64,000 bases of DNA from Candidatus Omnitrophota bacterium. Lineage in GTDB: Bacteria > Omnitrophota > Gorgyraeia > Zapsychrales > Zapsychraceae. The position numbers and the translations under genes were made by a program. The stretch lies in assembly GCA_015233495.1 (NCBI GenBank), contig JADFXQ010000005.1, positions 3,066 through 67,065 on the forward strand. Reading direction: 5' to 3'. Positions 3,356 to 25,482 of the stretch are shown one piece after another (position 1 is the first letter of the stretch; each line of letters begins with the position of its first letter). The notes under the pieces were generated by a model, which made no database searches, had not been told where the DNA came from, and saw only the letters and a list, made by a program, of their open reading frames with translations.

Positions 3356-3942
3356 TGGTTTGCGGGAGGAGCGGATTCGACAGGATTGGCGATGGGTTGG
3401 GATGGCTGATTTTTAATCGCATCTTTCACCTCATTAAGCGCCGCTGATAACCCGAGAATTTTATTGTTTAACAGAACTTGGGACTTTTGGGTGTCATTTA
3501 AGTCCGTTTGGTTGACTGTCAATGTCTGCCGAAAAGATTCCAATTTCATTTCAAGGAGTTTTTGGCGGGTTTCGGCGGCTTGAATGCGTTTTTCTAAGGT
3601 GATTAGATCAGCTTGAAGAAGTTTTTTAGTTTGATTCAACTCTTGTTTGAGCGCTTCGATGTTTTGGTTTTGCAGAGTCAGGGTTTCTTGAAACTGGCCT
3701 GCCTTGTTGTTTTGGGCGCGTAAACTAACGATCATCTGGTAATTGACCGCGCAAAAAATAAATAGTCCGGAAAGAAAAAATAATGTTAACGGAATAAAAA
3801 TTTTTTCGCTGAAGTGTTCGCCCGCAGACATTTGTAAATGGTCCAGCATGCGCAACGGCGACTTGTTTCCCCCCGCGTCGAGAAAAGCGGGTTTATTTTT
3901 TTTATAATTGGGAAAAGGAGTAGATGGCGAACTCATATTCAT
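3352..3942 (-). CDS. membrane-anchored coiled-coil protein, unknown function
   Basis: Single TM segment (LTLFFLSGLFIFCAV) followed by a long heptad-like Q/L/K-rich region. Divergent from rpoN. Confidence 0.5.
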   Translation of the reverse strand: MNMSSPSTPFPNYKKNKPAFLDAGGNKSPLRMLDHLQMSAGEHFSEKIFIPLTLFFLSGLFIFCAVNYQMIVSLRAQNNKAGQFQETLTLQNQNIEALKQELNQTKKLLQADLITLEKRIQAAETRQKLLEMKLESFRQTLTVNQTDLNDTQKSQVLLNNKILGLSAALNEVKDAIKNQPSQPIANPVESAPPANQ

Positions 3943-3974
3943 ATTATAACAATATTTTTTTTTATGTCCCGCAT

Positions 3975-4004
3975 TTGGCAGAATATTTTTTAAGATGTTA
4001 TACT
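3975..4004 (+). promoter_or_regulatory. sigma-70-like promoter upstream of rpoN (TTGGCA-N18-TATACT). The -10 ends 6 nt before the ATG, suggesting a leaderless or near-leaderless transcript.
   Basis: Direct reading of 3975-3980 TTGGCA and 3999-4004 TATACT, with the ATG at 4011. Confidence 0.35.
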
Positions 4005-4010
4005 TTCAGT

Positions 4011-5360
4011 ATGAAGATAGAAATTTCCTCACTCCAGTCTCAACGACCAATATTTTTGCCGTTGATCCGTCCGGCAATGGAAGTGTTGATGCTGCCAATT
4101 CTTGAGCTTAAGACAGTTATTGAGGCGGAGTTGCAAAGCAACCCGCTTTTGGATGTAGACGAGGAACTGACGCGACAAAGATATGAAATTTTGCAGGAGC
4201 TGCTGCGGGAGCGCTATCCAAGGGGCCGTTATGCGTCGGGAGATTCCTTTCCGGAGGACCCATTTCAGGGACTGACGCGTGAAATATCCTTAGAAGAACA
4301 TTTACTGCAGCAATTAGATTTGGAAATCAACGATACTGAGGAATTAAAAATCGGCGAAATGATTATTGGGAGTTTGGATGAGAATGGATATTTACGAGAA
4401 AGTTGCGAAATGCTGGCCGCGGGATTATCCCTGGCGGTTGAGAAGGTGGAAAAAGTTTTAAACATTATTCAGGGTTTCGACCCGCCCGGAGTCGCGTCGC
4501 GAAATTTAAAAGAATGTTTATTGATTCAGGCCGGGACCCGGCTGACTCGGCAATCTGATTTGTATCAAACATTGATCGCGGATCATTTTGAGGATTTGGC
4601 TAAAAAAAAGTTTGGGGATATCAGCCGGGCTTTGCGGATACCAGTTGCGCAGGTTAAAGACATGACCAGAATCATCGCCGCGTTTAATCCGCGACCCGGA
4701 TGCGCGTTTCAGGCAAGGACGCCGAATTTATATGTTCAACCGGATATGATCATCCTCCCGGCGACTGACCCGAGCGAATATGAAATTATTTTAAATCAAA
4801 CCGAAGTTCCGGTTTTGAAGCTGAATCCGGTTTATCAAAATCTCCTGCGCCGGAGTGATTTGAAGACCGAGGACATTCAGTTTCTTAGAGAGAGAGTTAA
4901 AGACGCGGTTTGGTTCATTCGGAATTTAAAACAGCGAGAGCAAACTATTCAGATGATTGCGGAATTTATCGTTGGCTATCAAAAAGATTTTTTTAAACGC
5001 GGGGTGCTCGGATTGAAACCGTTGGCGCTCAGTGAAGTGGCGCGAGCCATTGGCCGTAATGAATCAACCGTGTGCCGCGCCGTTAACCGTAAATATGTGG
5101 ATTCACCGCAAGGTATTTTTCCGCTCAAATATTTTTTTACGACCCGGGCTTCCCGCCAACGCGGGCAAGAACGTCTTTCCACGCGCGGCATTAAAGAAGA
5201 AATCCGCGTGATTGTTCAAGAGGAAAATACCGGCGCCCCACTCTCCGACCAGGAAATTCACGAAATTTTAGAACAACGCGGCAGGCCTATATCCCGCCGG
5301 GCCATCGCTAAATATCGCGATAAATTGAAAATTCTTCCGTCGTATTTGCGTAAAGGATAA
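4011..5360 (+). CDS. rpoN: RNA polymerase sigma-54 factor
   Basis: N-terminal Q/L-rich activator-interacting region (MKIEISSLQSQ...ELQSNPLL). HTH motif STVCRAVNRKYV...PLKYFF. RpoN box RRAIAKYR. Start placed at ATG 4011, because the track start at 3924 overlaps the divergent gene. Confidence 0.9.
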   Translation: MKIEISSLQSQRPIFLPLIRPAMEVLMLPILELKTVIEAELQSNPLLDVDEELTRQRYEILQELLRERYPRGRYASGDSFPEDPFQGLTREISLEEHLLQQLDLEINDTEELKIGEMIIGSLDENGYLRESCEMLAAGLSLAVEKVEKVLNIIQGFDPPGVASRNLKECLLIQAGTRLTRQSDLYQTLIADHFEDLAKKKFGDISRALRIPVAQVKDMTRIIAAFNPRPGCAFQARTPNLYVQPDMIILPATDPSEYEIILNQTEVPVLKLNPVYQNLLRRSDLKTEDIQFLRERVKDAVWFIRNLKQREQTIQMIAEFIVGYQKDFFKRGVLGLKPLALSEVARAIGRNESTVCRAVNRKYVDSPQGIFPLKYFFTTRASRQRGQERLSTRGIKEEIRVIVQEENTGAPLSDQEIHEILEQRGRPISRRAIAKYRDKLKILPSYLRKG

Positions 5361-5742: not shown

Positions 5743-6870
5743 TTAAACGAGTGCAGCGCTTTGCAATGTTTGTTTTAAAGTCTGGATTTCGGCGCGGGTG
5801 TGGCTTAAGGAAAAATAAAATGGTTCCGCTGCCTTTGCCGGCAGGATGATATTGTTTGTCCAGGCGCGGGCTACGAATGCCGCGTATTCATTATCGTCAA
5901 TGGTTTCCGGGATGAATCCGAGCATAGACCCAAAACGAGTTAAGCGCGGCAGCATTTTTTTTTCTTCCCAAAAAGAATTCAGGGCGGCGGTAAAATTTTC
6001 CGCAGTGGTGTTAAGCTTCGCGTAGACAGGCGGGGTGAGTTGGCGCAAGATGGCCAAACCGGTTTTGGCCACCACTGGGTTGGGAATGCCGGGCAGCACG
6101 AAAGCGTCGAGGATTTCCGCTTTTCCGCCAACCGCTCCTAAGGAAAATCCGCCGCCAATGATTCGTCCCAAACAAGTTAAATCAGGTTGAAAATGATGGG
6201 CAGTTTGCCATCCGCCCAAACCCTCCCGGAAGCCGGTCGCAATTTCATCGAAGATTATATAAAAGCCATGTTCCCGGGACAAAGTAGTCAGAGTGTTTAA
6301 AAAATTTGAGTCAACACTGGCAAAACCTTGGCGGGTGAAGGCCACAGGCGTGAGGATGATCGCAGCCAGAGCCGCGGCGTGGCGGCGTAGTTCGAGGGTA
6401 ACCGCGTTCCAATCTCCCCAGGGTAAATGCAGAATATTACTGGAAGAATTGAGCGGCGAAGCTTGATCCAGAGAAACAATCAATTCTTTTTTGCGGTTCA
6501 TCCGGGCCAAAGTCATGGCCAAGCGCCGGGCTTTTTCTTCGGACGAAGTCAGCTGGATTTTTTCGATCGCGGGAAAATGTTTTTTAATTTCTTTCGCCAG
6601 GCTCACAGTATCCCGGCTAAACGAAGAAAAAAAGATTCCTTGATCCGCCGCTTTTTTCGCGGCTAAAGCGGCAATCCGGTTGTTATGTCCGAGAATAATG
6701 GCGCCCTGTCCCAGGGTATAGTCCGTAAAGGCATTATTGTCAAAATCATAAATACGCGAACCGCGGGTGTATTTTATCAAGGTTGGCAAATGATTTGCCG
6801 GGCGCGGCAAAACTGCGCTGGCCTCCGCGAAAAGAGGATAAGAATGTCCCGGATATTTTTTTTTCTTCAT
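5743..6870 (-). CDS. aminotransferase class-III fold PLP enzyme (glutamate-1-semialdehyde 2,1-aminomutase-like)
   Basis: IFDEIATGFREGLGGWQ...GRIIGGGFSLGAVGG matches the class-III pattern DEV.TGFR...GK.IGGG.P.GAFGG. Start moved to ATG at 6868-6870 (MKKKKYPGHSYPLFAEA), which removes the overlap with the upstream gene. Confidence 0.7.
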   Translation of the reverse strand: MKKKKYPGHSYPLFAEASAVLPRPANHLPTLIKYTRGSRIYDFDNNAFTDYTLGQGAIILGHNNRIAALAAKKAADQGIFFSSFSRDTVSLAKEIKKHFPAIEKIQLTSSEEKARRLAMTLARMNRKKELIVSLDQASPLNSSSNILHLPWGDWNAVTLELRRHAAALAAIILTPVAFTRQGFASVDSNFLNTLTTLSREHGFYIIFDEIATGFREGLGGWQTAHHFQPDLTCLGRIIGGGFSLGAVGGKAEILDAFVLPGIPNPVVAKTGLAILRQLTPPVYAKLNTTAENFTAALNSFWEEKKMLPRLTRFGSMLGFIPETIDDNEYAAFVARAWTNNIILPAKAAEPFYFSLSHTRAEIQTLKQTLQSAALV

Positions 6871-6883: not shown

Positions 6884-8989
6884 TCAAATGATTTCAGCGA
6901 CCAGTTGTTGTATTTTGGGCAACGATCGTCGGGCGGCTTCTTCCCCGCGCTTAATGAGCTCTTCGGTTTTATAAAGTTCATACCATTCAATGCCGATTAA
7001 ATCCGGATGAATAGCGACATCGGCTTGATGCGCGCTTTGTTCAGCGATCACATACTCGGTGGCTTGCAGGGTTAAAACAATTATGTCGGAAATATTGGGA
7101 TAAAAATAACGGTTAAAAAAGCGGCCAATGCGGAACAGGATATATTTCCAAGGCGCGGTTTTAAACGTGATGTTTTGGCGGCGGCGTAAATCCCGCGTTT
7201 TGATGTCGAGACTTTTCATGACATCGTCCGGCGATTGTAGGACGTTTACGGAAATGATTTTTTTAATTCCTTCCGCTACCAAGACATTGGTCGGCAAAGG
7301 ATTGAGCACGCCGCCGTCGATAATCACCCGTTGGTTTTGCCGGATTGGTTTGATGATCCCGGGAATGGCAATGCTTTGCATGACTGCTTCAACGATCGTG
7401 CCGCTATTGATGACGATTTCCTGACGCGAGGCGAGATCATAGGAGACAATGCGCAACGGCACTCGCGTGGTGTAAAAAGTTCGGTCGCCGAATTGTTTTT
7501 TTAGCCACTTGCGGATCGCCGCGCCGCCGATAAAACCTGATATGGGGACAATCGGGTCTAACAAACTTAAGGCAACTCTTTTACTTTGAAACTGTTTGGC
7601 TAATTTTTCGATTTCATCCGAGGAATAGCCGCAGGCCCACAAAGCGCCGATTAAAGCGCCCATACTGCTGCCGCTGACCATATCCACCGGGATATTTTCT
7701 TTTTCTAAGACGCGTAAGATGCCGATGTGGGCGATGCCTAAAGCCGCGCCGCCGCCTAAAGCAATGCCTAAAAGTACGCCGCCGATTTCCCGGGCGATGC
7801 GCGTGGTGACTCGGTTGTAGGCGCTATCCGGGCTGCAACGGGCGAAATGAATGTGCTCCGAGTCAAAGGGCACGTTCGGGTCCCGGTCGCTGATATAAGG
7901 CAGTCGGGTATAGACGGAATAATCCAAAAGCCGGCTGATTTCGTCTAAAGACCGGTTATGGTCAGCCGTTAAGGAACTTATCACGATCCGAATATTTTCC
8001 GGCTGGAAGTTTTCCTTTAACGCAGACTCTAAACGGTCGATAACGCCCCGGGTCAAATCAAGCCCGGTTTTTTGATCCAAACTCACGAGATGCACAAGAT
8101 CGGATTGGGCCAATGTTTCTAAAACCACATCATCCATTTCATTCGGCAAATCCACTACAACATAATGATAATCTCCGACCAAGCTGGTGACAAACGGGGC
8201 GATTAGTTTTTTATTAAAGGACGGCCCAGGTTCAAACGTTACATTGAGTAAATCAATTTTTAGGTCGCTGTGTAAAATGGCTTTATGGATTTTATCGTTG
8301 TTGTCTGCGATATCGTTTAAAGCAACCGCGGTTTGCCGCCAACGCGGCGCGATATCCGGGTTGTCGCCAGAAGGCGCGGAATCTCTAGAATGGATGCGCA
8401 CGAAGATCACGCGTTTTTTGGATTCTCTTTCGAGGCTCAACGCTAAGTTGATCCCGTAGGTGGAATTTCCGGTTTCTTTCATCGGGCTATATACCGAAAT
8501 TATGGTGCTTAAGAAGCCGCCTTTATGGCCTTTGATTTTACGGCGCATTTCATTAGATAAAATTTTACTGAATTGGATGCTGAGCTCCGGCACAAGTTTT
8601 AATATGGCGTGAAAATCATTTTTGGCGATTTGCAGGATGACCGAGTCGTTCAGCGCTTCATAATTATTGGAATGCGTCTCGCCGGTAAATACCGAAAGGA
8701 TGCCGAAATGGGACCCGCGGTGGATAAATTCCACGTTTTCTTTATCGTCATGGGCGTTGAGGGTAAAAGCTTGGATACGTCCGGATACAACACAGTAAAA
8801 AAAATCAGCGGGGTCGCCTTCCTTGCGAATAAAAGACCCTTTAGAATATTCGCGAAAGACACATTTGCGGGCGATTCTTTGTTGATCAAACCAGTTGAGC
8901 TTGGCAAAAACGGGAATTTGTCGGACGATTTGCAGTTGATTGAGCAAATTCGATAATAAATTCATGGTTAAATCCATTTTGTGAGCCAA
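6884..8989 (-). CDS. cyclic nucleotide-binding domain / degenerate ParA-like domain / patatin-like phospholipase, three-domain protein
   Basis: N-terminal CAP-family cNMP-binding fold (FIRKEGDPADFFYCVVSGRIQ...RGSHFGILSVFTGE). Middle segment resembles a MinD/ParA fold with a degenerate Walker A (MKETGNST) and a DLPNE Walker-B-like stretch. C-terminal patatin motifs GGGAALGIAHIG (Gly-rich) and GSSMG (GxSxG). Confidence 0.75.
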   Translation of the reverse strand: MAHKMDLTMNLLSNLLNQLQIVRQIPVFAKLNWFDQQRIARKCVFREYSKGSFIRKEGDPADFFYCVVSGRIQAFTLNAHDDKENVEFIHRGSHFGILSVFTGETHSNNYEALNDSVILQIAKNDFHAILKLVPELSIQFSKILSNEMRRKIKGHKGGFLSTIISVYSPMKETGNSTYGINLALSLERESKKRVIFVRIHSRDSAPSGDNPDIAPRWRQTAVALNDIADNNDKIHKAILHSDLKIDLLNVTFEPGPSFNKKLIAPFVTSLVGDYHYVVVDLPNEMDDVVLETLAQSDLVHLVSLDQKTGLDLTRGVIDRLESALKENFQPENIRIVISSLTADHNRSLDEISRLLDYSVYTRLPYISDRDPNVPFDSEHIHFARCSPDSAYNRVTTRIAREIGGVLLGIALGGGAALGIAHIGILRVLEKENIPVDMVSGSSMGALIGALWACGYSSDEIEKLAKQFQSKRVALSLLDPIVPISGFIGGAAIRKWLKKQFGDRTFYTTRVPLRIVSYDLASRQEIVINSGTIVEAVMQSIAIPGIIKPIRQNQRVIIDGGVLNPLPTNVLVAEGIKKIISVNVLQSPDDVMKSLDIKTRDLRRRQNITFKTAPWKYILFRIGRFFNRYFYPNISDIIVLTLQATEYVIAEQSAHQADVAIHPDLIGIEWYELYKTEELIKRGEEAARRSLPKIQQLVAEII

Positions 8990-10092
8990 GCTAAGGTTTC
9001 AATATGCTTGGTTTTCGGAAAAAAATCAAAGGGCATAACGCGTTGAATTTGCCAACCACCCGAAACCAACCCGTTTAAATCCCGAATCAAGGCTTCGGGC
9101 TGGCAGGACAAATAAAGTAAATGTTGAAATCCAGTCGCGTTTTTAAACATGGCTAAGGCGGAGGAACTCAGACCGGCTCGCGGCGGATCAATTATTGCGA
9201 CGGCGGAGTTATTTTTGTCCGAGAAATTGAGAATGTCCAAATGCTCTTCCATTTTTCCGGATTTGATTTCAAAATTTGTTAAGCCGTTATAATGCGCATT
9301 GTGATGGCAAAGTTTTATCGAAGCCGGATTCTCTTCAACCAAAACCACCTGGCGCGCCAAATCCGCCAAGCCGATTCCAAACAATCCTACTCCGCCGTAT
9401 AAATCAAAGAGCCGAGGTTTGTTTTGGTTATCGTTGGGTGTTTTCTGCCGATTGTCGACAGTCGGTTGTTTCTCACCCGTTTTTTGCCCCCAGATTGGCA
9501 ATGTTTCTATTGTAGCGAAAAGTTTGGGCAAAATCGACAAATTTGCCTGAAAGAATGTTTCTAGGCTGTAAAAAATTTTTCGGGAACGGATGGTGGCGGA
9601 AAAATAATTTTCCGGAGATTGGCGCAAGGATCGTTTGCCGATGCCGCCCCAAAAGACCTTTCCTTCCTCTCCGGTCCGCACGACAAGATTAGCGACTCGG
9701 TAGCGTGCCGGCAATGTCGCGCGGACTTGCCGGGTGAGCTCGGGAATAAAATCAGAAATTTCCCGCCGGGCGATGTAACACGCGCTGATCGGGAGAATGC
9801 CGCGGTGGTTTTGCGGGGTAAAGCCCACCAGGATTTCGTTGGTTTTAGTGCGCAGGAGTTTTAGGTCTATCCGGTTGCGGTAATTATATTCCTCTGCGGA
9901 TGCGACAATAGGTTCCGGAATCCCGGCGAAACCGGCAGCCTTAAAGATTTTTTGTAAATAAGCTTGTTTCCAATTTAGCTCTTCGGAATAGGAGATGTTT
10001 TGAAATGAACAGCCTAAACAAGTTTTAAAAACCGGGCAAAGCGGCAGGACACAGAGTGCGTCAGTGTCATAATTTTCAATATCAGGTTTCAT
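8968..10092 (-). CDS. 23S rRNA (uracil-C5)-methyltransferase RlmD/RumA family
   Basis: N-terminal Cys cluster (CVLPLCPVFKTCLGC). SAM-MTase motifs LFDLYGGVGLFGIGLA and IIDPPRAGL. Start moved to ATG 10090-10092 to avoid overlap with the upstream gene. The track start is 10131. Confidence 0.75.
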   Translation of the reverse strand: MKPDIENYDTDALCVLPLCPVFKTCLGCSFQNISYSEELNWKQAYLQKIFKAAGFAGIPEPIVASAEEYNYRNRIDLKLLRTKTNEILVGFTPQNHRGILPISACYIARREISDFIPELTRQVRATLPARYRVANLVVRTGEEGKVFWGGIGKRSLRQSPENYFSATIRSRKIFYSLETFFQANLSILPKLFATIETLPIWGQKTGEKQPTVDNRQKTPNDNQNKPRLFDLYGGVGLFGIGLADLARQVVLVEENPASIKLCHHNAHYNGLTNFEIKSGKMEEHLDILNFSDKNNSAVAIIDPPRAGLSSSALAMFKNATGFQHLLYLSCQPEALIRDLNGLVSGGWQIQRVMPFDFFPKTKHIETLAWLTKWI

Positions 10093-10099
10093 GAGAGAA

Positions 10100-10693
10100 T
10101 CACAACAGTTTGAAGGAGCGAAATAGGGCATTGACAGACTTGATGTACAGATCGTAATCCGCCAGTGTAGCTACATAGGTGATCTGGTAAGCTTTCCCGT
10201 TTTTTAACGCCCAAACGTGCGTGATTTTTAAATCATAGATGGGGTCCCGGGCGATATAGGTGAATTTAGCGGCAGGAAAACCCGCTAAGGTAAATGGCTC
10301 TTGATCGATGATTTCAATTTTTGCTTTAAATACGGCTTGTAATTGTTTAACTGCCCGGTCTGAATAGACTTCTAAGGACAGGCGCGGGTCAACCCCTTGA
10401 ATCACCACGTTGACATTTTCCGAGAAAGCATCCAGCGCATTTTTTCGCGGTGAATTAAATATCACCGCAGTGTTGTCTTTATTTTCGGTAACTGCCCAAT
10501 CAGACGGATATTTTAGGGCAAACCCATAAGAAGGATTAGCGTAGGATTGATACGTTTTAGCTTCTCTTAACCATAAATAGCCGATGATTCCTAAAATTAC
10601 AGCGCATAATCCGCTTATGAGATAAAGCTGCAAGGCGCTATATTTGTGTTGTATATCTCTCAGCGGGTTGGGGGTTGAAGTATCGGGTGGCAT
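10100..10693 (-). CDS. membrane-anchored protein, possibly PsbP/DcrB-like (DUF1795) fold
   Basis: One N-terminal TM segment followed by a roughly 150-aa periplasmic domain. The family assignment is tentative. Confidence 0.4.
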   Translation of the reverse strand: MPPDTSTPNPLRDIQHKYSALQLYLISGLCAVILGIIGYLWLREAKTYQSYANPSYGFALKYPSDWAVTENKDNTAVIFNSPRKNALDAFSENVNVVIQGVDPRLSLEVYSDRAVKQLQAVFKAKIEIIDQEPFTLAGFPAAKFTYIARDPIYDLKITHVWALKNGKAYQITYVATLADYDLYIKSVNALFRSFKLL

Positions 10694-13340: not shown

Positions 13341-14615
13341 TTATTCGAAAAATAAATGTTTAAGATTCATGACGTCGCGGTAGGGAACAACTCCCAACAT
13401 TTTTCCGAACGCATCCGTGATCGGCAGAGCGCGGAAACCATAGCGGGCGAACATCTCTGAGGCAGATTTTAAGGTGCTGTCCGTGTTCAAGCTGATAACT
13501 TTGCTCGTCATGAAATTTTGTAAAAGTTCGCTCTCTTGCGCGCGCAGCAATTCTTTTAAGTGGATGACGCCTAATAACATATCCGCGGGATCAAGGATAT
13601 AAAGATAAATAATACAATCCTTATCTTTAGCGGATTGCAGATATTCTTGCCGGACTTGCCCGGCCGTCACATCCGGGGAAAAGCGTAAAAAATCCGAAAC
13701 CGCGAAATGGATGGCCCGTTCTTCTTGCATTTCCAGAATGCCCCGGATTTTCGCGGCGTTTTTATTATCAAGTAATTTTAAAATGGCGTCGACTTCCCAC
13801 CAGGGCAAGATTGACAGAATATCCGCGGCTTGTCCCGGAGTCATCTCATTGATCAAGAGCGCGGCCTTGTCTTTTTTGAGCGATCCGATCAAGTCGCGTT
13901 GATACCGCGGATCCAATTCTTCCAGGGTGTCGGACGCGTGTTCGGTTTCCAACTCGGAAAATAAGGCCACCCGCTGCTCCGGGTCAAGTTCTTCCAAAAT
14001 ATCCGCCAAATCCATGGGCTGCATTTCCGAAAGCCGCTCCTTGAGGATTTTTAATTTCAGGTCGCCTTTAAAACTGCTGATATTTTCCGGCAAACGTTGG
14101 ACATAATTCCAGGATACGGTTTGACTGCGGATTTTTTCTGCTAGTTTATAAATAAAATTCGCCAGCCATTTTAAACCGACGCGGCGCAGCAACCCATAAC
14201 GGCTGAGGTCCACGTCGATGACGAATAGTTTTTTATTGCTCAAGAACATTTTAACGTCATAAACAACTTCCACTTCCCTTCCATCCACGTCCAAGACTTT
14301 TTTATCCAAGATGTGGTCGCGCAGCAGCACGCTGCCTTCCGCGGGTTCGCCGATGTAAGGCTCAAAGGAAGCGATGTCGATTTCAACATCTTTTATCCCG
14401 AACAATTTCACTTTATCCCAGGGGATCAGCAAGGACGGTTCCCCAAACGGCCGCGAGACCAGAATATGCGTTATTTCGGCAATTTTATCTTTGTCGATAA
14501 TCTGAAAATCGTCTAACTTGCCGATTTTATTGCCGGAATTGATGACCGGGATATCGGTGATTTCGCTTAAGAAAAAGGTTTGATCCACCGGAGTCGGCCG
14601 GGCTGTGGTGTTCAT
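13341..14615 (-). CDS. soluble PRC-barrel / MgtE_N / tandem CBS domain protein (MgtE-like cytoplasmic Mg2+-sensor architecture without a channel domain)
   Basis: N-terminal PRC-barrel-like repeats (VLDVDGREVEVVYDV). MgtE_N acidic helical region (DLADILEELDPEQRVALFSELETEHASDTLEELDP...PGQAADILSILP). Two C-terminal CBS motifs. No TM segments. Confidence 0.7.
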   Translation of the reverse strand: MNTTARPTPVDQTFFLSEITDIPVINSGNKIGKLDDFQIIDKDKIAEITHILVSRPFGEPSLLIPWDKVKLFGIKDVEIDIASFEPYIGEPAEGSVLLRDHILDKKVLDVDGREVEVVYDVKMFLSNKKLFVIDVDLSRYGLLRRVGLKWLANFIYKLAEKIRSQTVSWNYVQRLPENISSFKGDLKLKILKERLSEMQPMDLADILEELDPEQRVALFSELETEHASDTLEELDPRYQRDLIGSLKKDKAALLINEMTPGQAADILSILPWWEVDAILKLLDNKNAAKIRGILEMQEERAIHFAVSDFLRFSPDVTAGQVRQEYLQSAKDKDCIIYLYILDPADMLLGVIHLKELLRAQESELLQNFMTSKVISLNTDSTLKSASEMFARYGFRALPITDAFGKMLGVVPYRDVMNLKHLFFE

Positions 14616-14825: not shown

Positions 14826-16097
14826 TTATTTAAATATCTCCGGAAATAAAGCCGTCAAGCCGTACAGCGTTGAAACGATAATAATGAACACCACGATGCC
14901 GACATTGATAATGTTTTGTAAAAGGGTGTTTTTATACTTTCCCATCAACTCATCATTATTGAGCAAAAGAATCAAAAATACAAGCGCCGCCGGTAAAAGC
15001 GTGACTGCGATGACCTGAACGAACAGCGTGATCAGCACCAAAGGCGCGCCGGGGATGAGCACCACAGTTCCGGCGGTCAACAAAGCAAAGAAATAAAAAG
15101 CGTAAAACCAGGGTGCCTCGCGGACATTGGCGTTAAGGGAATGCGCCCAGCCAAAAACTTCTCCGAAGGCCCAAGAACTGGCTAAAGAAATACAAACCGC
15201 GCCGAGCAAGCCGGCGTTGAACAGGCCGATCGCTAAAAGCGTGCCGAGGAATTTATTAACGCTCATCAGCTGAATCGCGGCTTGTGCCGCGCTGTCAATC
15301 GGCACGCCGTATAAAACTGTGCCTGTGACCACAATACAAAAAGCGGCGACCATAATCGTGAAAAACGAACCGATTGCCGTGTCGACCTTGCCCCAAACAA
15401 TATCTTTTTCTTTGACGTTTTTATCGACCACTGCGCTTTGTTGAAAAAAGACCATCCAGGGAGCAATCGTGGTCCCGATGTTTGCCATGAGCAAAAAGAA
15501 AATTTGATTCGTAAACCCGCCCGGCGGCAAATGCGGCACAAAACTATTGTATAAAACATCCGGCACGGATGGGTTCACCATAAACGCAGCGGGAATATAA
15601 ATCAGGTTTAAAGCGCAGAAACCCATGACAATTTTTTCCCAAGTCCAGTATTTCCCCTGCAAAACCATAAAGCCCATCAGGGCGGACACCGCGAGCACCG
15701 TGATGACCGGCGGGACATGGAAAATGCTCAAGGCCGCGGTCATGCCGATGAATTCCGTGACCAAGGTCAGCCAATCCGTGAGGATGAGGTCGAGCAAGGA
15801 AAACCAGCCCCAAAACGGGCCGAACCCCTGAAAAATCGCTTCCGCGTGGCCGCGTTTGGTGACCGCGCCGAGTCGCACGGTCATCTCCTGGACAAAATAA
15901 GCGATGAACCCCAGAACAACCAGAAACCACAAAAAATGATATTTATATTGAGCGCCGGTCACGGCGTAAGTGGTGATCCCGCCCGCGTCATTGTCGGCGA
16001 TCATCACAATGATCCCCGGCCCGGCGAGGAGTAAATAAAGTTTCAGACCTTTAAAAAATTTACGGTATTCGTAAAAACTTTTGGCGAAAATATTCAT
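14826..16097 (-). CDS. NRAMP (SLC11) family transporter with non-canonical metal-site motifs, NRMT-like
   Basis: 11-12 TM segments. The TM1 motif reads ADNDAGG where canonical Mn/Fe NRAMPs have DPGN. The TM6 motif reads IAPWMVF where they have MPH. Confidence 0.75.
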   Translation of the reverse strand: MNIFAKSFYEYRKFFKGLKLYLLLAGPGIIVMIADNDAGGITTYAVTGAQYKYHFLWFLVVLGFIAYFVQEMTVRLGAVTKRGHAEAIFQGFGPFWGWFSLLDLILTDWLTLVTEFIGMTAALSIFHVPPVITVLAVSALMGFMVLQGKYWTWEKIVMGFCALNLIYIPAAFMVNPSVPDVLYNSFVPHLPPGGFTNQIFFLLMANIGTTIAPWMVFFQQSAVVDKNVKEKDIVWGKVDTAIGSFFTIMVAAFCIVVTGTVLYGVPIDSAAQAAIQLMSVNKFLGTLLAIGLFNAGLLGAVCISLASSWAFGEVFGWAHSLNANVREAPWFYAFYFFALLTAGTVVLIPGAPLVLITLFVQVIAVTLLPAALVFLILLLNNDELMGKYKNTLLQNIINVGIVVFIIIVSTLYGLTALFPEIFK

Positions 16098-16243: not shown

Positions 16244-16801
16244 CTACCAACCTAAAATCAGGAAATAAAAGAAATAAAAAATGATCCAAAAAGCTGAAAA
16301 TATCGCTCCTTTTTTTGTCGGCCATTGTTGAACACATTTGTTCCCGGAAAAGTCGATGATCTGGGCGATAAAAATGCCCACTAAAAAACGAGTAGCTCGC
16401 GCTAAAATGGAAAAGAAGAGAAATAGAGTTATATTGCCGGAGAGTCTTCCCCACTCCGCAGCGTAAATTTTATATGGGATGCCCCGAAACATCCCGTTAA
16501 ACACACTGATGAGACCGGATTCGCGCAAATGTCCCGCGACTTGGTTGACCATGTTCGCAGAAATCCCGGGTGTCCTGTCCAGACGCAAGGTTAGTTGCGG
16601 CATAGGGGTTTGCTTCCCGACAAAATACATCAGTAAACCGCCGGAGAGAGCTCCGAGAACCGCCCACATCACAGCTCGATATGCCATTTTGCGGTTGGGT
16701 AAAAAGAATGCCAATCCGGTAAGCCAGACGTCCGGCACGATGAAAAAAAACGTCCCTTCGGCCAGCCCCCATAAATAAGGAATGAAAACAGTTGCGATCA
16801 T
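16244..16801 (-). CDS. DedA/YqaA-like (SNARE-associated) membrane protein, tentative
   Basis: 185-aa polytopic protein. The WGLAEGTFFFIVPD...GALSGGLLMYFVGK pattern resembles the YqaA/DedA re-entrant motif region. Directly upstream of plsC. Confidence 0.4.
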   Translation of the reverse strand: MIATVFIPYLWGLAEGTFFFIVPDVWLTGLAFFLPNRKMAYRAVMWAVLGALSGGLLMYFVGKQTPMPQLTLRLDRTPGISANMVNQVAGHLRESGLISVFNGMFRGIPYKIYAAEWGRLSGNITLFLFFSILARATRFLVGIFIAQIIDFSGNKCVQQWPTKKGAIFSAFWIIFYFFYFLILGW

Positions 16802-17448
16802 GATCGATTTTCCTTAAGCCGAATTACGGCTTCGCGCAATTGTTTTACAGCCGTATCTTTCGGGCCTTCCAGGGCAATCGGTTGTCCGATATGAACTTCG
16901 CAAAAAAAAGGCAATAAAATTAACTCTCCTTTTGGCAGGGCGCGGTACATATTGTTTAAATACACCGGGATGATAGGAATATTGCCGTGTTCTTTGATGA
17001 GGTGGACGACGCCGGCATGAAAGGGCCCGATCGTGCCGTCTTTTGACCGCGTGCCTTCCGGAAAGATAATCAAAACATTTTTTTGCTTCAAGGCATCTTT
17101 CAGTTTATCTATGGGATTGCATTCCCGGTTAATATGGGCTCGTTCAATGGACAAGATATTAAAAAAGGTGTGCGCGAGCCAGGAAACGAAAGGATTTTTT
17201 TCAAAATAGTCAGCCGCTGCCACAGGACGCACTTTTCCTAATCGGTGTATGGGAAATAAACTTAATAACGCGGCAGTATCCAGATGGCTGGAATGATTAG
17301 CGATCAAAATATAAGGTGTTGAAAGGGGTAAATTCTCCCGCCCATAGATCCGTAGACCGATAAAAATATATAACACCGGCCGCAAGATAAAAATGAAAAA
17401 TAATACGCGCAGAATGTTCCGCATATCAATAATAAAAATACCGGACAA
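16798..17448 (-). CDS. plsC: 1-acyl-sn-glycerol-3-phosphate acyltransferase
   Basis: HSSHLD (HxxxxD) and FPEGTRS motifs. Confidence 0.85.
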   Translation of the reverse strand: MSGIFIIDMRNILRVLFFIFILRPVLYIFIGLRIYGRENLPLSTPYILIANHSSHLDTAALLSLFPIHRLGKVRPVAAADYFEKNPFVSWLAHTFFNILSIERAHINRECNPIDKLKDALKQKNVLIIFPEGTRSKDGTIGPFHAGVVHLIKEHGNIPIIPVYLNNMYRALPKGELILLPFFCEVHIGQPIALEGPKDTAVKQLREAVIRLKENRS

Positions 17449-18388
17449 GATGAAAAAATATCGGGGCTGTATAACACAAAGAGTCGGCGCGATCTAAAGC
17501 GCCTCCGTGTCCGGGGATAAAATTGCTGAAATCTTTGATCCCGACGTCGCGTTTGATCGCGGACATGACAACATCGCCGAAAAATCCCAATACTCCGATG
17601 ATGAAGCCGAAAAATAAAGTTTCCTCGACGTTAAAAGGCGTTAAAAATCTTAAAAAAAGAGAACAAAGAGTTGTTGTGATTACACCGCCCCAAAAACCTT
17701 CAGACGTTTTCTTCGGGCTGACGCCTGGTATGATTTTACGGCGCCCGACGGCTTTTCCCCAAAGATATTGAAAGACATCATTCATCTCGGTCGCAATGAC
17801 TAAAAAAAGCAGCAATGTGGCGCCGTTGACCCTGCCAGAGTTGATAGCCGGCATTTTTGATAAAAATGCCAAGTGGCTTAAGCCGAACACAAAAGCCATC
17901 AACCCCCATTGAATAGCAGATGTCGAAGATAAAAATCCTTTGGGTTCTTCCGTTAAAACAAGGCGTATCGGGATAAACAAAAACATATAAACAGGAATAA
18001 AAATAATGAACATCCCGTACCAACCGATCGAAACAAAATAATATTGAGCCGGAATGCAGAGAAATGCCCAAAATAAAGCCCGGTGATCAGCGCGCCGGGT
18101 ATCAAGAATCGTAACAAATTCTTTAAAAACCATAAAACTCAAGAGGGCAAAAAATATGATCGTTATAGAACGGTTGACGACTACTGCGGCAAAGAAAAAA
18201 AATGCCATGATCCACCATGCGCGAACGCGGTCTTTCAATTCCGTGATATTGAAGGAAATGATGTGGCGAGATAAAAATTCTATGAGCGCGGAAGACAAGA
18301 GCAAAACACAAAAAATCATCAAACCGGCCAGTGACAGGGAAGACAGAATAGGATCCGTAATGCCCCTCATAGATTCGCCTCCTTCCAA
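17426..18388 (-). CDS. cdsA: phosphatidate cytidylyltransferase
   Basis: SPKKTSEGFWGG and GHGGALDRADS signature, with an extended N-terminal TM region. Confidence 0.85.
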   Translation of the reverse strand: MEGGESMRGITDPILSSLSLAGLMIFCVLLLSSALIEFLSRHIISFNITELKDRVRAWWIMAFFFFAAVVVNRSITIIFFALLSFMVFKEFVTILDTRRADHRALFWAFLCIPAQYYFVSIGWYGMFIIFIPVYMFLFIPIRLVLTEEPKGFLSSTSAIQWGLMAFVFGLSHLAFLSKMPAINSGRVNGATLLLFLVIATEMNDVFQYLWGKAVGRRKIIPGVSPKKTSEGFWGGVITTTLCSLFLRFLTPFNVEETLFFGFIIGVLGFFGDVVMSAIKRDVGIKDFSNFIPGHGGALDRADSLCYTAPIFFHLVRYFYY

Positions 18389-19002
18389 ATCGCAGTTAAA
18401 CGGTTAAGGCATGTTACAAGTGTTAGAGCAGCTGCGATGGCAAAGAATATTTTCCAATAATGAATCGTTGCCGGGTAGAAAAAAACTATAACGATTAGCA
18501 ATCCGGTAAAAAAAGCCCGATCGCTTTTGCCCATGGGACCTTCGTAATGACGGTGCGCTTTCAATGCAGGCCCAAGCAGACCGCAAAATTCCGTAAAAAT
18601 CCCTCCTAAAATAAAAAATAATATCGGGAATTCAGCCGATGGACATAGAATAAGAAATGGAATAAAAAGAGCAGCATCGGAAACAAGATCGCCGATCTCG
18701 TTTAAAATCAGTCCGAGCCGAGATTGCAATTTAAATTCCCTGGCCATCATACCATCGAGAGCATTTAATGCCATCCGGATAAAAAGCCAAACAGGGAATA
18801 TGAGAATTTTAACATTATCCATAGAAACCAAGGTCATCAGAAAACCTACGCAAATAGACCCCCCAACGGCCGATAAAGTCAAACCATTGGGGGTAATTTT
18901 CAGATCATGTAAAAAAAACATGACCGGACGCATGAGATTTTGAAACGCTGGTTTTAGGTTATAAATACTCGGCACCGTCACTCCCTTCACTGACAGATTC
19001 AA
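18367..19002 (-). CDS. CDP-alcohol phosphatidyltransferase family protein (PgsA/Pss-like)
   Basis: DGMMAREFKLQSRLG...EIGDLVSD motif (DGxxAR...G...D...D). Confidence 0.8.
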   Translation of the reverse strand: MNLSVKGVTVPSIYNLKPAFQNLMRPVMFFLHDLKITPNGLTLSAVGGSICVGFLMTLVSMDNVKILIFPVWLFIRMALNALDGMMAREFKLQSRLGLILNEIGDLVSDAALFIPFLILCPSAEFPILFFILGGIFTEFCGLLGPALKAHRHYEGPMGKSDRAFFTGLLIVIVFFYPATIHYWKIFFAIAAALTLVTCLNRLTAIWKEANL

Positions 19003-19006
19003 AAGA

Positions 19007-19687: not shown

Positions 19688-19740
19688 CTGATTCCCTCCT
19701 AACCCTATATGTGTAAACTTGATGCTTACTACGGCTTTTT

Positions 19741-19814: not shown

Positions 19815-19891
19815 ATCATTTAACAGGACATTGCAATTTTCACATAGCAACAAGTATTTTATATCAGCTGTATGAGCCGCTCGTAATCGTA

Positions 19892-20623: not shown

Positions 20624-20644
20624 TTGTTGCCTTTTGTCCGGTGT

Positions 20645-25474: not shown

Positions 25475-25482
25475 AATGATCC

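What the first reader, a model, noticed from the sequence alone, without database searches (positions are those of the whole stretch)
6884..8989. cNMP-binding / pseudo-ParA / patatin three-domain protein
The 701-aa protein has an N-terminal CAP-type cyclic-nucleotide-binding domain and a C-terminal patatin lipase domain (GGGAALG and GSSMG motifs). This order loosely recalls eukaryotic neuropathy target esterase. The middle roughly 250 residues look like a MinD/ParA-fold domain whose Walker A is degenerate (MKETGNST where active ParA proteins have KGGxGK[ST]T). This suggests an inactive ATPase-like regulatory or scaffolding domain. A second-messenger-gated phospholipase carrying a dead ParA-like module is an unusual architecture. 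It may relate functionally to the nearby lipid-remodelling genes.
Basis: partly seen in the sequence, partly recalled or inferred. Interest (0 to 1): 0.55.

Follow-up and report, generated by a model that had tools for sequence, protein, structure and literature searches.

The report
Bacterial NTE-like lipase with dead ParA domain
This gene encodes a conserved bacterial lipid-cleaving enzyme that joins a sensor domain, a burnt-out ATPase-like domain and a patatin lipase. That is the same three-part layout as the core of the human neuropathy target esterase, and in related genomes the gene sits inside fat-burning operons. The sensor probably does not bind cAMP or cGMP in the usual way.

Summary
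The ORF lies on the minus strand, and the true start is probably Met9 (8965), giving 693 aa. All three domains are real:
- a CNB fold (Pfam E 1e-18);
- a MinD/ParA fold (AF2 plus Foldseek; family profile vs PDB ParA-family 3ea0, E 4e-9);
- an RssA-type patatin with intact GxSxG and DGG motifs (E 7e-31).

The Walker A lysine is lost in this protein (Asn) and across its family. The P-loop drifts freely among 54 diverse three-domain representatives, so the middle domain is a pseudo-ATPase.

The "second-messenger-gated" reading is weakened. The phosphate-binding cassette has Ile in place of the canonical Glu and His in place of the canonical Arg, and the His is family-wide.

The architecture is not unprecedented. 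Animal NTE/PNPLA6 carries a Pfam "NTE_Ploop" P-loop-like domain (PF24179) at the same position. Direct sequence homology of the two middle domains is weak, and the patatin domain is closer to bacterial RssA-like proteins than to NTE.

In 14 of 21 related loci with adequate flanks, the gene lies in same-strand clusters with thiolase, FadB-type genes, acyl-CoA dehydrogenase, FadD-type ligase or GlpK. This points to regulated lipolysis feeding β-oxidation. The window itself lacks that context.

Verdict: an uncharacterised bacterial variant of a known kind, of moderate interest.

The parts
6884..8965 (-). CDS of the three-domain protein (693 aa plus stop). The ORF extends upstream to a TTG at 8989, but those 8 extra codons are probably not translated.
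   Evidence: ORF list and translation. Identical 693-aa NCBI protein P0001. The family consensus starts at Met9. The ATG at 8965 lies 2 nt after the upstream stop.
8540..8941 (-). N-terminal CNB-fold (CAP/PKA-R type) sensor domain, ORF aa 17-150.
   Evidence: Pfam PF00027 E 1.3e-18. PDB sequence hits to PKG, PKA-R and MloK1. The full-length AF2 model matches MloK1 CNBD with TM 0.86-0.88.
8654..8707 (-). Non-canonical phosphate-binding cassette FGILSVFTGETHSNNYEA: Ile replaces the canonical Glu and His replaces the canonical Arg.
   Evidence: Ungapped phmmer alignments to PKG and PCR12. Family column counts: H 119/121, I/V 119/121. His is kept across nearly all of the 54 diverse representatives.
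8516..8536 (-). Flexible linker between the CNB C-helix and the middle domain.
   Evidence: AF2 pLDDT is below 50 for residues 144-150 of the 693-aa protein.
7784..8509 (-). Middle MinD/ParA-fold pseudo-ATPase domain (CpaE/TadZ-like subfamily), ORF aa 161-402.
   Evidence: Family profile vs PDB: 3ea0 E 4e-9, PF-32 1e-8, Soj 1e-6. AAA_31 hit in 24/24 members. AF2 plus Foldseek top 50 are all MinD/ParA class. hhalign vs canonical REC+ParA-like relatives: probability 100%, E 3e-46.
8459..8488 (-). Degenerate Walker A / P-loop SPMKETGNST. The canonical motif is xKGGxGK[ST]T; here the P-loop Lys is Asn and the signature Lys is Met.
   Evidence: Sequence. Alignment to 3ea0 and 3k9g. Family counts at the Lys position: S107, N5, G3, K2. 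The P-loop drifts across the wider family.
8144..8170 (-). Retained Walker B-type strand YHYVVVDLP (hhhhD).
   Evidence: D is present in 116/121 relatives and aligns to the Walker B region of ParA-family structures.
6887..7783 (-). C-terminal RssA-type patatin hydrolase domain, ORF aa 403-701.
   Evidence: Pfam PF01734 E 6.8e-31. NCBIfam RssA model aligned over aa 407-698. Foldseek match to PlpD with TM 0.84.
7736..7756 (-). Oxyanion-hole glycine motif GGGAALG. The usual Arg/Lys of G-G-x-[RK]-G is Leu.
   Evidence: Sequence. G405, G406, A407, A408, L409 and G410 are invariant and G404 nearly invariant in the family.
7658..7672 (-). Nucleophile elbow GSSMG (catalytic Ser434 of the 693-aa protein).
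   Evidence: Sequence. G432, S433, S434 and G436 are invariant and M435 nearly invariant in 83 relatives. S437 and G439 (P0121 numbering) are invariant in the 54 diverse representatives.
7307..7324 (-). Catalytic Asp motif IIDGGV (Asp550 of the Ser-Asp dyad).
   Evidence: Sequence. D550, G551 and G552 are invariant in 83 relatives. The motif is conserved in all 54 diverse representatives.
8968..10131 (-). Context: upstream RlmD-like m5U RNA methyltransferase gene. Its stop lies 2 nt before the start codon of this gene, consistent with one operon.
   Evidence: Pfam tRNA_U5-meth_tr. NCBIfam RlmD 158 bits, cutoff 184. It is a neighbour of this gene in many Omnitrophota loci, adjacent or one to two genes upstream.
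5743..6870 (-). Context: downstream class-III aminotransferase (HemL-like). Its ATG lies 13 nt after this gene's stop.
   Evidence: Pfam Aminotran_3. NCBIfam HemL models 185 bits, below the 398-bit cutoff. Sequence context.

Best explanation
The gene encodes a soluble 693-aa lipid acyl-hydrolase. It belongs to a conserved family found mostly in Omnitrophota, with outliers in other phyla.

SHOWN:
(i) The C-terminal RssA-type patatin domain keeps the Ser-Asp dyad and the glycine-rich oxyanion loop, so it is very probably catalytically active.
(ii) The middle domain has the MinD/ParA fold, and its closest intact relatives are receiver+ParA (CpaE/TadZ-type) ATPases. It has lost the P-loop lysine, the signature lysine and the switch-I aspartates. 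Its P-loop drifts freely across the family, so it is a pseudo-ATPase.
(iii) The N-terminal domain has the cyclic-nucleotide-binding fold, but its phosphate-binding cassette carries a family-specific His where the cNMP-phosphate-binding Arg should be. In the Omnitrophota clade it also carries Ile/Val where the ribose-binding Glu should be.
(iv) In most related genomes with enough flanking sequence, the gene is co-oriented and adjacent to thiolase, FadB/FadJ-type or split HADH+ECH genes, acyl-CoA dehydrogenase, long-chain fatty-acid-CoA ligase, a second alpha/beta-hydrolase and sometimes glycerol kinase.

INFERRED:
- The enzyme is a regulated intracellular (lyso)phospholipase or acylglycerol hydrolase that frees fatty acids, and ultimately the glycerol backbone, for activation and beta-oxidation.
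- The CNB-like domain acts as an allosteric sensor for a small ligand that is probably not cAMP/cGMP bound in the canonical way.
- The dead ParA-like domain serves as a rigid adaptor or dimerisation platform that couples sensor to catalytic domain. This is the same position and role as the 'NTE_Ploop' P-loop-like domain in eukaryotic NTE/PNPLA6.
For: Domains and motifs.
Structure: full-length AF2 model pLDDT 87, pTM 0.73. Foldseek matches PlpD, 3ea0 and MloK1 for the three parts. The middle-domain model matches MinD/ParA/Soj/FlhG only.
Pseudo-ATPase status across 54 representatives clustered at 50% identity: the P-loop varies among GK[ST], GR[ST], GS[ST], GN[ST] and scrambled forms, whereas REC+ParA relatives keep KGGxGK[ST]T. 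hhalign to those relatives gives probability 100%.
Synteny: beta-oxidation, FadD or GlpK genes lie on the same strand within about 8 kb in 14 of 21 loci with at least 4 kb of flank on both sides. They occur in two different arrangements: upstream thiolase-FadB-...-ACAD-gene, or GlpK-gene-thiolase-HADH-ECH-x-FadD-hydrolase.
NTE parallel: PF24179 NTE_Ploop sits between the CNB and patatin domains in PNPLA6/7/SWS. One collinear profile-profile alignment covers 574 columns at E 5e-55. CNB mutations impair the lipase function of SWS (PMC12710771).
Against: The window itself, and its closest relatives (L007, L002, L008, L009, L011), lack the beta-oxidation neighbours. Here the gene sits between an rRNA methyltransferase and a HemL-like aminotransferase, so the catabolic link rests on more distant orthologues.
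No substrate, ligand or oligomeric state has been measured.
The oxyanion motif lacks the usual basic residue (GGGAALG).
The strongly conserved KG[TA]GSST loop in the Omnitrophota clade suggests the 'dead' P-loop may still bind something, so 'mere adaptor' may be too weak a description.
His could in principle still contact a cyclic phosphate.
Homology of the middle domain to NTE_Ploop is only weakly supported (hhalign probability 17-29%).
Confidence: 0.6

Rival explanations
1. One reading: a cAMP/cGMP-gated phospholipase. Cyclic nucleotide binds the N-terminal CAP-type domain and switches the patatin domain on.
For: The CNB fold is clear and the Pfam cNMP_binding score is above threshold. The structure matches cNMP-bound MloK1 and PKG domains. 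Many non-Omnitrophota family members keep the FGE Glu. Eukaryotic NTE/PNPLA7 respond to cyclic-nucleotide levels.
Against: The PBC Arg that binds the cyclic phosphate is His in this protein and in nearly the whole family. The Glu that binds the ribose 2'-OH is Ile here. CRP/FNR-fold domains are known to bind many other ligands (established knowledge). No cyclase was seen among the neighbouring genes examined.
Confidence: 0.2
2. Membrane phospholipid homeostasis enzyme working like NTE/Nte1. It would deacylate membrane (lyso)phospholipids to glycerophosphodiesters as part of a remodelling cycle with re-acylation by the Aas-type enzyme encoded 12 kb away, rather than feeding catabolism.
For: The tripartite core parallels NTE. 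The window carries PlsC-like, CdsA, CDP-alcohol phosphatidyltransferase and a full-length acyl-[ACP]-phospholipid O-acyltransferase/MFS fusion (1282 bits, above cutoff) at 16.8-24.3 kb. The window lineage lacks adjacent beta-oxidation genes.
Against: The lipid-synthesis cluster is separated from the gene by Nramp, MgtE-like, transketolase and 6PGL genes, and it was not seen next to the gene in the other loci examined. The recurrent neighbours are catabolic. The patatin domain is no closer to NTE than ordinary RssA-like proteins are.
Confidence: 0.25
3. Anti-phage abortive-infection effector, like CBASS CapV/CapE or a Pycsar cNMP-binding effector. A nucleotide signal made on infection would unleash membrane-destroying phospholipase activity.
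For: Weak PADLOC and NCBIfam hits to CBASS phospholipase effectors via the patatin domain, and to PycTIR via the CNB domain. Foldseek hits to CapE.
Against: All these scores are far below family cutoffs (34 bits or less in PADLOC; 19-26 bits vs 200-400 in NCBIfam). The gene is a vertically conserved, syntenic core gene across Omnitrophota, next to housekeeping and beta-oxidation genes. No cyclase or other defence genes are adjacent. The PBC is non-canonical.
Confidence: 0.03
4. The middle domain is a working ParA/MinD-type ATPase that uses ATP-dependent dimerisation to position the lipase on the membrane or nucleoid.
For: The MinD/ParA fold and Walker B Asp are retained. A minority of distant family members still have GK[ST]. 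BcsQ-type relatives with a non-Lys P-loop are reported to bind ATP (my own knowledge, not tested here).
Against: This protein lacks the P-loop Lys, the signature Lys and both switch-I Asp residues. P-loop sequences are unconstrained across the family, including fully scrambled versions.
Confidence: 0.05

Closest known systems
Eukaryotic neuropathy target esterase family (PNPLA6/NTE, PNPLA7/NRE, Drosophila SWS)
   Same: The core order is the same: CNB domain, then a P-loop-like domain with no functional P-loop (Pfam PF24179 NTE_Ploop), then the patatin domain. The bacterial CNB profile hits NTE CNB2 and CNB3 at about 1e-13 to 1e-14, and the patatin profile hits at 1e-37. A single collinear profile-profile alignment covers 574 columns at E 5e-55. 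NTE CNB sites are also partly non-canonical: Arg is absent in CNB1 and CNB2 (PMC12710771). JGI labels several family members 'NTE family protein'.
   Different: The bacterial protein has no N-terminal transmembrane segment and one CNB domain instead of three. Its middle domain is recognisably MinD/ParA (AAA_31), whereas it does not hit NTE_Ploop (1 of 54 representatives at E 0.075). The similarity specific to the middle domains is weak (hhalign probability 17-29%, P 1e-4 to 1.5e-3, controls P 0.08-0.9). The patatin domain scores much higher against bacterial RssA-like proteins (about 250 bits) than against NTE (about 100-140 bits).
Bacterial RssA/YchK-type patatin-like phospholipases, and the PlpD lipase domain (PDB 5fqu/5fya)
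   Same: The catalytic domain is of this type. The NCBIfam RssA model aligns over aa 407-698. PlpD is the best PDB hit by sequence (E 3e-25) and by structure (TM 0.84). The GxSxG and DGG motifs are conserved.
   Different: RssA-like proteins are single-domain, about 300 aa. This family adds a 400-aa N-terminal CNB plus pseudo-ParA regulatory half. The RssA score (102 bits) is far below the equivalog cutoff of 272.
CpaE/TadZ-type receiver+MinD/ParA ATPases, and PDB 3ea0 (Chlorobium 'ParA family ATPase')
   Same: These are the closest relatives of the middle domain. About 400-aa proteins with Response_reg + AAA_31 give hhalign probability 100%, E 3e-46. 3ea0 is the best PDB match by profile (E 4e-9) and by fold. 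They share the layout of an N-terminal sensor-type domain followed by a ParA-like domain. 3ea0 itself has a Lys-less P-loop, KGGDGGS.
   Different: The relatives mostly keep the canonical KGGxGK[ST]T and lack a lipase domain. In this family a CNB fold replaces the receiver domain, and the ATPase motifs have decayed.
CBASS CapV/CapE and Pycsar cNMP-binding effectors
   Same: They also pair a nucleotide signal with a patatin phospholipase or a CNB-effector fusion. Weak profile and fold hits were found.
   Different: CapV/CapE bind the cyclic (oligo)nucleotide signal without a CNB domain. Pycsar effectors lack a patatin domain. Scores are far below cutoffs, and the genomic context is housekeeping or catabolic rather than defence.

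Membership tests
Patatin-like phospholipase (PF01734) | G-x-S-x-G nucleophile elbow | tested here: met
   GSSMG at ORF aa 440-444. G432, S433, S434 and G436 are invariant and M435 nearly invariant in 83 relatives.
Patatin-like phospholipase (PF01734) | D-G-[GA] motif supplying the Asp of the Ser-Asp dyad | tested here: met
   IIDGGV at aa 556-561. DGG is invariant in 83 relatives.
Patatin-like phospholipase (PF01734) | Glycine-rich oxyanion loop G-G-x-[RK]-G | tested here: inconclusive
   The motif is GGGAALG. The glycines are essentially invariant, but the basic residue is Leu in this clade (A/R/L in the wider family).
Patatin-like phospholipase (PF01734) | Patatin alpha/beta fold | tested here: met
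   pLDDT is mostly above 90 in this region. Foldseek matches PlpD (TM 0.84), patatin Pat17 and CapE.
Patatin-like phospholipase (PF01734) | Lipid acyl-hydrolase activity | not testable with these tools
   Needs an enzyme assay.
Cyclic-nucleotide-binding domains (PF00027), functional cNMP binders | Eight-stranded beta-barrel with PBC helix and C-helix | tested here: met
   Pfam E 1e-18. Foldseek matches MloK1, HCN and PKG CNBDs at TM up to 0.88.
Cyclic-nucleotide-binding domains (PF00027), functional cNMP binders | PBC Arg (R-[ST]-A) contacting the cyclic phosphate | tested here: not met
   His at that position: H 119/121 close relatives and nearly all of the 54 diverse representatives.
Cyclic-nucleotide-binding domains (PF00027), functional cNMP binders | PBC Glu (F-G-E) contacting the ribose 2'-OH | tested here: not met
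   Ile here, and I/V in 119 of 121 close relatives. Glu is retained in many non-Omnitrophota members.
Cyclic-nucleotide-binding domains (PF00027), functional cNMP binders | Measured cAMP/cGMP binding | not testable with these tools
   Needs ITC, DSF or another binding assay.
MinD/ParA (SIMIBI) ATPases | MinD/ParA alpha/beta fold | tested here: met
   The top 50 Foldseek PDB matches are all MinD/ParA/Soj/FlhG/NifH class. Profile vs 3ea0 gives E 4e-9.
MinD/ParA (SIMIBI) ATPases | Deviant Walker A xKGGxGK[ST]T with signature Lys and P-loop Lys | tested here: not met
   The sequence is SPMKETGNST: the signature Lys is Met and the P-loop Lys is Asn. The family has Ser in 107 of 121, and the wider family drifts.
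MinD/ParA (SIMIBI) ATPases | Switch I / Walker A' aspartates after beta2 | tested here: not met
   VIFVRIH in this protein. The family consensus VIFVNIH has N and H where the Asp residues sit in MinD/ParA. The mapping to MinD positions rests on my reading of the alignment.
MinD/ParA (SIMIBI) ATPases | Walker B hhhhD | tested here: met
   YHYVVVDLP, with D present in 116 of 121 relatives.
NTE/PNPLA6 family (narrow sense) | CNB, then P-loop-like domain, then patatin, in that order | tested here: met
   Pfam layout of P0271, P0348 and P0366 compared with this protein. One collinear profile alignment.
NTE/PNPLA6 family (narrow sense) | Match to Pfam NTE_Ploop (PF24179) | tested here: not met
   No hit for the window protein at E up to 1. 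One of 54 representatives hits at E 0.075. hhalign probability 17-29%.
NTE/PNPLA6 family (narrow sense) | N-terminal transmembrane anchor and three CNB domains | tested here: not met
   There is a single CNB domain starting at about residue 10, with no room for a preceding segment. The NTE layout is taken from PMC9025805 and PMC12710771.
NTE/PNPLA6 family (narrow sense) | Patatin domain closer to NTE than to other bacterial patatins | tested here: not met
   The NTE patatin HMM gives a median of 102 bits for this family vs 121 for RssA-like proteins. This family's HMM gives a median of 244 bits for RssA-like proteins vs 141 for NTE.
CBASS / Pycsar defence effectors | Above-threshold match to effector models and an adjacent nucleotide cyclase | tested here: not met
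   PADLOC scores are 34 bits or less. NCBIfam CBASS_lipase scores 19 bits vs a cutoff of 200. No cyclase is present in the neighbourhoods examined.

The most novel reading that the evidence does not exclude
The bacterial CNB / pseudo-ParA / patatin family is the prokaryotic counterpart, or source, of the eukaryotic NTE/PNPLA6 core. On this reading NTE's enigmatic 'P-loop-like' domain is a further-decayed MinD/ParA (CpaE/TadZ-type) ATPase. The ancestral job of this three-domain module would be metabolite-gated lipolysis coupled to beta-oxidation. The His-type CNB pocket, and/or the still-conserved KGxGSST pseudo-P-loop, would sense a non-cNMP ligand such as an acyl-CoA or another nucleotide-containing metabolite.
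Probability: 0.25. Interest if true: 0.65.

Novelty: new variant of a known kind. Interest (0 to 1): 0.45.

Why it matters
NTE/PNPLA6 is a human disease gene, linked to organophosphate-induced neuropathy, hereditary spastic paraplegia and Oliver-McFarlane syndrome. The papers I searched and read did not describe its region between the CNB domains and the catalytic domain. The review I read acknowledges bacterial homology only for the catalytic C-terminus (PMC9025805).

This bacterial family is soluble and compact. It has one sensor domain, a middle domain still recognisable as MinD/ParA, and a clear operon context of lipid catabolism. That makes it a tractable model for three questions:
- how a CNB-fold sensor and a pseudo-ATPase control a patatin lipase;
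- what ligand such non-canonical CNB sites bind;
- where the NTE P-loop-like domain came from.

For Omnitrophota biology, it marks a conserved regulated lipase that is frequently wired to fatty-acid oxidation and glycerol kinase.

Tried and rejected
- A narrow Omnitrophota middle-domain HMM found nothing in the NTE linker region.
- hhalign of only the N-terminal half (beta1, P-loop, alpha1, beta2) against NTE_Ploop produced the expected register but was not significant: P 0.025 vs 0.048 for the reversed control.
- The Pfam NTE_Ploop model is hit by only 1 of 54 bacterial representatives, at E 0.075. I do not claim membership.
- Testing whether the patatin domain is specifically NTE-like gave the opposite result: it is RssA-like. 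I therefore rejected 'direct orthologue of NTE' as the main statement.
- The defence-effector idea was rejected on PADLOC/NCBIfam scores and on context.
- A tblastn search of the 64-kb window with thiolase, FadB and ACAD probes found none of them. GlpK and FadD probes were run only against the first 20 kb, also without a hit. The catabolic context therefore cannot be claimed for this locus itself.
- Literature searches found no paper describing the bacterial three-domain family or a ParA-like assignment for the NTE middle region. No paper with Rv2565 together with either other term appeared in the 10 rows shown.
- The listing of cluster members gave almost no taxonomic names for divergent representatives; only Ca. 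Lindowbacteria was named.


Full report
OBSERVATION.
The ORF at 6884..8989 is real but lies on the minus strand; the plus-strand frame is full of stops. It has 701 codons from a TTG. The identical NCBI protein (P0001, 693 aa, 'patatin-like phospholipase family protein [Candidatus Omnitrophica bacterium]') and the consensus of 120 homologs both begin at Met9. That ATG, at 8965, lies 2 nt after the stop of the upstream gene. The downstream gene's ATG (6870) lies 13 nt after this gene's stop, which suggests a tightly packed operon. Pfam finds cNMP_binding (aa 46-131, E 1.3e-18) and Patatin (aa 410-570, E 6.8e-31), both well above the gathering thresholds. The quoted motifs GGGAALG, GSSMG and MKETGNST are present.

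THE MIDDLE DOMAIN.
For this sequence alone, the middle 250 residues give only sub-threshold hints: AAA_31 E 0.0055, and MinD/BcsQ/ParA models E 0.05-0.16. At family level the assignment is unambiguous.
- All 24 members of a middle-domain alignment hit AAA_31 (best 8.5e-11), 21 hit ParA (PF10609), 17 hit CbiA and 12 hit BcsQ.
- The profile hits PDB 3ea0 (ParA-family ATPase, E 4e-9, covering the whole domain), the Borrelia PF-32 partition protein (1e-8) and Soj (1e-6).
- An AF2 model of the domain (pLDDT 85, pTM 0.86) returns only MinD/ParA/Soj/FlhG/FleN/NifH-class structures among its 50 best Foldseek matches.
- The full-length model (pLDDT 87, pTM 0.73) matches PlpD (TM 0.84), 3ea0 and the MloK1 CNB domain (TM 0.86-0.88) with its three parts. 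It has a low-confidence linker between the CNB domain and the middle domain.
- An exhaustive profile search of 1.84 billion representatives found the closest catalytically intact relatives to be about 400-aa Response_reg+AAA_31 proteins, i.e. the CpaE/TadZ-type layout, with canonical KGGxGK[ST]T. hhalign of the middle domain against them gives probability 100%, E 3e-46.

DEAD ATPASE.
Aligned to 3ea0 and 3k9g, the loop SPMKETGNST places Met at the signature-lysine position and Asn at the P-loop lysine position. In 121 close relatives the P-loop lysine position is Ser in 107, Asn in 5, Gly in 3 and Lys in 2. The post-beta2 segment reads VIFVNIH where MinD/ParA have their Asp residues. The Walker B strand YHYVVVDLP is kept. 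Across 54 three-domain representatives clustered at 50% identity, the P-loop is GK[ST] in some, and GR[ST], GS[ST], GN[ST] or completely scrambled in others. Such drift means ATP chemistry is not what selection maintains, so the domain is a pseudo-ATPase. One caveat applies. Within the Omnitrophota clade the loop KG[TA]GSST is itself strongly conserved (G 121/121, S 118/121, T 114/121), so it may still bind something.

THE CNB DOMAIN IS NON-CANONICAL.
Ungapped phmmer alignments to Plasmodium PKG and Toxoplasma PCR12 CNB domains align FGILSVFTGETHSNNYEA with FGE..........R[ST]A. This puts Ile at the ribose-binding Glu and His at the phosphate-binding Arg. In the close family these positions are I/V (119/121) and His (119/121). 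In the 54 diverse representatives the His-Ser pair (LLTGExHS) is almost universal, while many non-Omnitrophota members keep FGE. The domain is best described as a CNB-homology sensor with an unknown ligand. It is not proven to be ligand-free, and a His-phosphate contact cannot be excluded.

THE CATALYTIC DOMAIN.
The GxSxG motif (Ser434 of the 693-aa protein) and the DGG motif (Asp550) are invariant or nearly so. The domain is RssA/YchK-like over its whole length, and PlpD is the best solved relative. The basic residue of the oxyanion motif is Leu.

RELATION TO NTE.
I used a PNPLA6 fragment written from memory as bait; it proved 99% identical to a real database protein. With it I retrieved 120 animal NTE/PNPLA6/PNPLA7/SWS proteins, and all of them carry PF24179. 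Pfam names this family 'NTE_Ploop - Neuropathy Target Esterase family P-loop like domain'. It sits exactly between the last CNB domain and the patatin domain, for example at residues 406-601 before Patatin 606-771 in P0271. The layout of sensor, then P-loop-like domain without a P-loop, then patatin is therefore already curated for eukaryotic NTE.

Whether the two middle domains are homologous is less clear.
- Profile-profile comparison gives probability 17-29% (P 1e-4 to 1.5e-3). It consistently aligns the Walker-B strand, the following 'QSD-x-h-L-h' strand (NTE: RQADCILIV) and the helix R[IL]AR..G that leads into the patatin domain.
- Unrelated-domain and reversed-sequence controls give P 0.08-0.9.
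- NTE_Ploop scores about the same against canonical ParA-like proteins.
- The N-terminal half alone is not significant.
- Only 1 of 54 bacterial representatives touches the Pfam model, at E 0.075.
- A full-length profile-profile alignment is one collinear match of 574 columns (E 5e-55), but the flanking domains drive that score.
- The patatin domain of this family is much closer to bacterial patatin-only RssA-like proteins (median about 245-265 bits) than to NTE (about 100-140 bits), and the NTE profile does not prefer this family over RssA-like proteins.

I conclude that the protein works like, and is built like, the NTE core. Narrow membership in the NTE family is not demonstrated, and independent assembly of the same layout remains possible.

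GENOMIC CONTEXT.
In the window the gene lies between an RlmD-like m5U methyltransferase and a HemL-like aminotransferase. Further upstream are a PsbP-like gene, 6-phosphogluconolactonase and transketolase. No thiolase, FadB or ACAD gene was found anywhere in the 64 kb.

In related genomes the picture differs. In L001, L003, L005, L006, L010 and L013 the order is thiolase, FadJ/FadB, (PsbP-like, methyltransferase, small ORF), VLCAD-like acyl-CoA dehydrogenase, then this gene, all on one strand. In L005 the ACAD stop overlaps this gene's start. In the 30-35%-identity clades (L014-L017, L020-L022, L026) the gene is instead followed directly by some or all of thiolase, 3-hydroxyacyl-CoA dehydrogenase, enoyl-CoA hydratase, an unknown 249-aa ORF, a long-chain fatty-acid-CoA ligase and a Hydrolase_4 alpha/beta-hydrolase. 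In three loci a bona fide glycerol kinase precedes it (GlpK, 715 bits vs cutoff 498). Overall, 14 of 21 loci with at least 4 kb of flank on both sides show such genes. The two rearranged configurations argue for functional coupling rather than inherited gene order.

They lie 8-15 kb away behind unrelated genes and did not recur next to the gene elsewhere.

DISTRIBUTION.
Full-length matches in GTDB representative genomes are mostly labelled Omnitrophota. A few MAGs are labelled Planctomycetia or Verrucomicrobiia, and single hits occur in Ca. Vecturithrix and Ardenticatenia. A divergent representative comes from Ca. Lindowbacteria.

MECHANISM (best estimate, confidence 0.6).
The protein is a soluble, allosterically controlled (lyso)phospholipase or acylglycerol hydrolase. 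The Ser434-Asp550 dyad releases fatty acids. In most lineages, neighbouring genes encode the enzymes that activate these fatty acids (FadD) and oxidise them (ACAD, FadB/HADH+ECH, thiolase), and GlpK handles the glycerol. The CNB-fold domain senses a small molecule through a His/Ser-type pocket, probably not cAMP or cGMP in the canonical mode. The dead ParA-like domain transmits or scaffolds this signal, perhaps through the dimer interface typical of the fold.

What is shown: folds, motifs, conservation and synteny. What is inferred: substrate, ligand, oligomeric state and the direction of regulation.

Rivals: a canonical cNMP-gated lipase (0.2), NTE-like membrane phospholipid homeostasis linked to the Aas remodelling genes (0.25, not mutually exclusive with the best estimate), a working ParA ATPase (0.05) and an anti-phage effector (0.03; PADLOC scores 34 bits or less).

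NOVELTY.
Databases already label the protein generically ('patatin-like phospholipase', 'NTE family protein', 'RssA/Mrp-family ATPase', 'RssA/BcsQ'), and Pfam already knows that NTE has a P-loop-like domain. I found no paper describing the bacterial three-domain family, its MinD/ParA-type pseudo-ATPase, its His-type PBC or its beta-oxidation linkage. The NTE review I read mentions only bacterial homology to the catalytic C-terminus (PMC9025805). I rate it a new variant of a known kind, of moderate interest. Its value lies mainly in offering a tractable bacterial model for the regulatory half of NTE-type lipases.

Noticed in passing
window 16798-24298 (minus strand): A phospholipid synthesis and remodelling cluster. 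It contains a PlsC-like acyltransferase (16798-17448), CdsA (17426-18388), a CDP-alcohol phosphatidyltransferase (18367-19002), a hexapeptide transferase (19007-19786), an alpha/beta-hydrolase (19892-20623) and a 1179-aa MFS+acyltransferase+AMP-binding fusion. The fusion matches NCBIfam acyl-[ACP]-phospholipid O-acyltransferase PRK08633 at 1282 bits, above its cutoff. This looks like an LplT/Aas-type lysophospholipid re-acylation enzyme fused into one chain.
   Followed up: partly
window 10100-10693 (minus); also L001, L003, L005, L006, L007, L010: A PsbP-like protein of about 190 aa (PF01789, E 4e-10) is conserved next to the RlmD-like methyltransferase. This pair travels with the three-domain lipase gene across Omnitrophota. 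In several genomes the PsbP-like/methyltransferase pair is interleaved inside the beta-oxidation cluster, between FadB and ACAD. No NCBIfam model matches it, and its role is unexplained.
   Followed up: partly
L020 14193-14942: A 249-aa ORF between the enoyl-CoA hydratase and the fatty-acid-CoA ligase of the lipid-catabolism operon has no Pfam hit (E up to 1e-5) and no NCBIfam hit (E up to 1e-10). tblastn at 1e-10 did not find it in the other loci.
   Followed up: no
L001 3799-4086, L005 4773-5060, L006 4622-4912, L010, L012: A small ORF of about 95 aa, with only a weak DUF1636 hit, recurs between the methyltransferase and the VLCAD-like acyl-CoA dehydrogenase, immediately upstream of the ACAD/lipase pair.
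   Followed up: no
window 5743-6870 (minus): The downstream class-III aminotransferase resembles HemL but scores far below the model cutoffs (185 vs 398 bits), and its best matched stretch covers only the C-terminal part of the HemL model. In L003 and L006 the homologous gene follows HemC/D and HemB, which supports a HemL role. In the window those heme genes are not adjacent.
   Followed up: partly
window 13341-14615 and 14826-16097 (minus): A 424-aa protein combines a weak PRC-barrel hit with MgtE_N and CBS domains, and no MgtE membrane-domain hit was reported for it. It sits next to an Nramp-family metal transporter. It may be a soluble Mg2+ or metal-sensing regulator paired with the transporter.
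   Followed up: no
window 24668-26492 (minus): A MarR-family regulator (24668-25138) is followed by a truncated-looking phage-integrase-family ORF (25875-26492, 205 aa, matching only positions 27-169 of the profile). This may be a remnant or boundary of a mobile element. MarR plus RND efflux genes also follow the lipase gene in L001 and L005.
   Followed up: no
PDB 3ea0, alignment: The closest solved relative of the middle domain, the Chlorobium 'ParA family ATPase' 3ea0, itself has a lysine-less P-loop (KGGDGGS). Loss of the Walker A lysine may therefore be a recurrent feature of this CpaE/TadZ-like branch and not unique to the lipase fusion.
   Followed up: no
window 3924-5360 (plus): A sigma-54 (RpoN) gene lies on the opposite strand to its neighbours, amid sugar-nucleotide and polysaccharide genes (two epimerase/dehydratases, a polysaccharide deacetylase, a cupin-type mannose-6-phosphate isomerase). 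The same sigma-54 and cupin neighbourhood is seen in L007.
   Followed up: no
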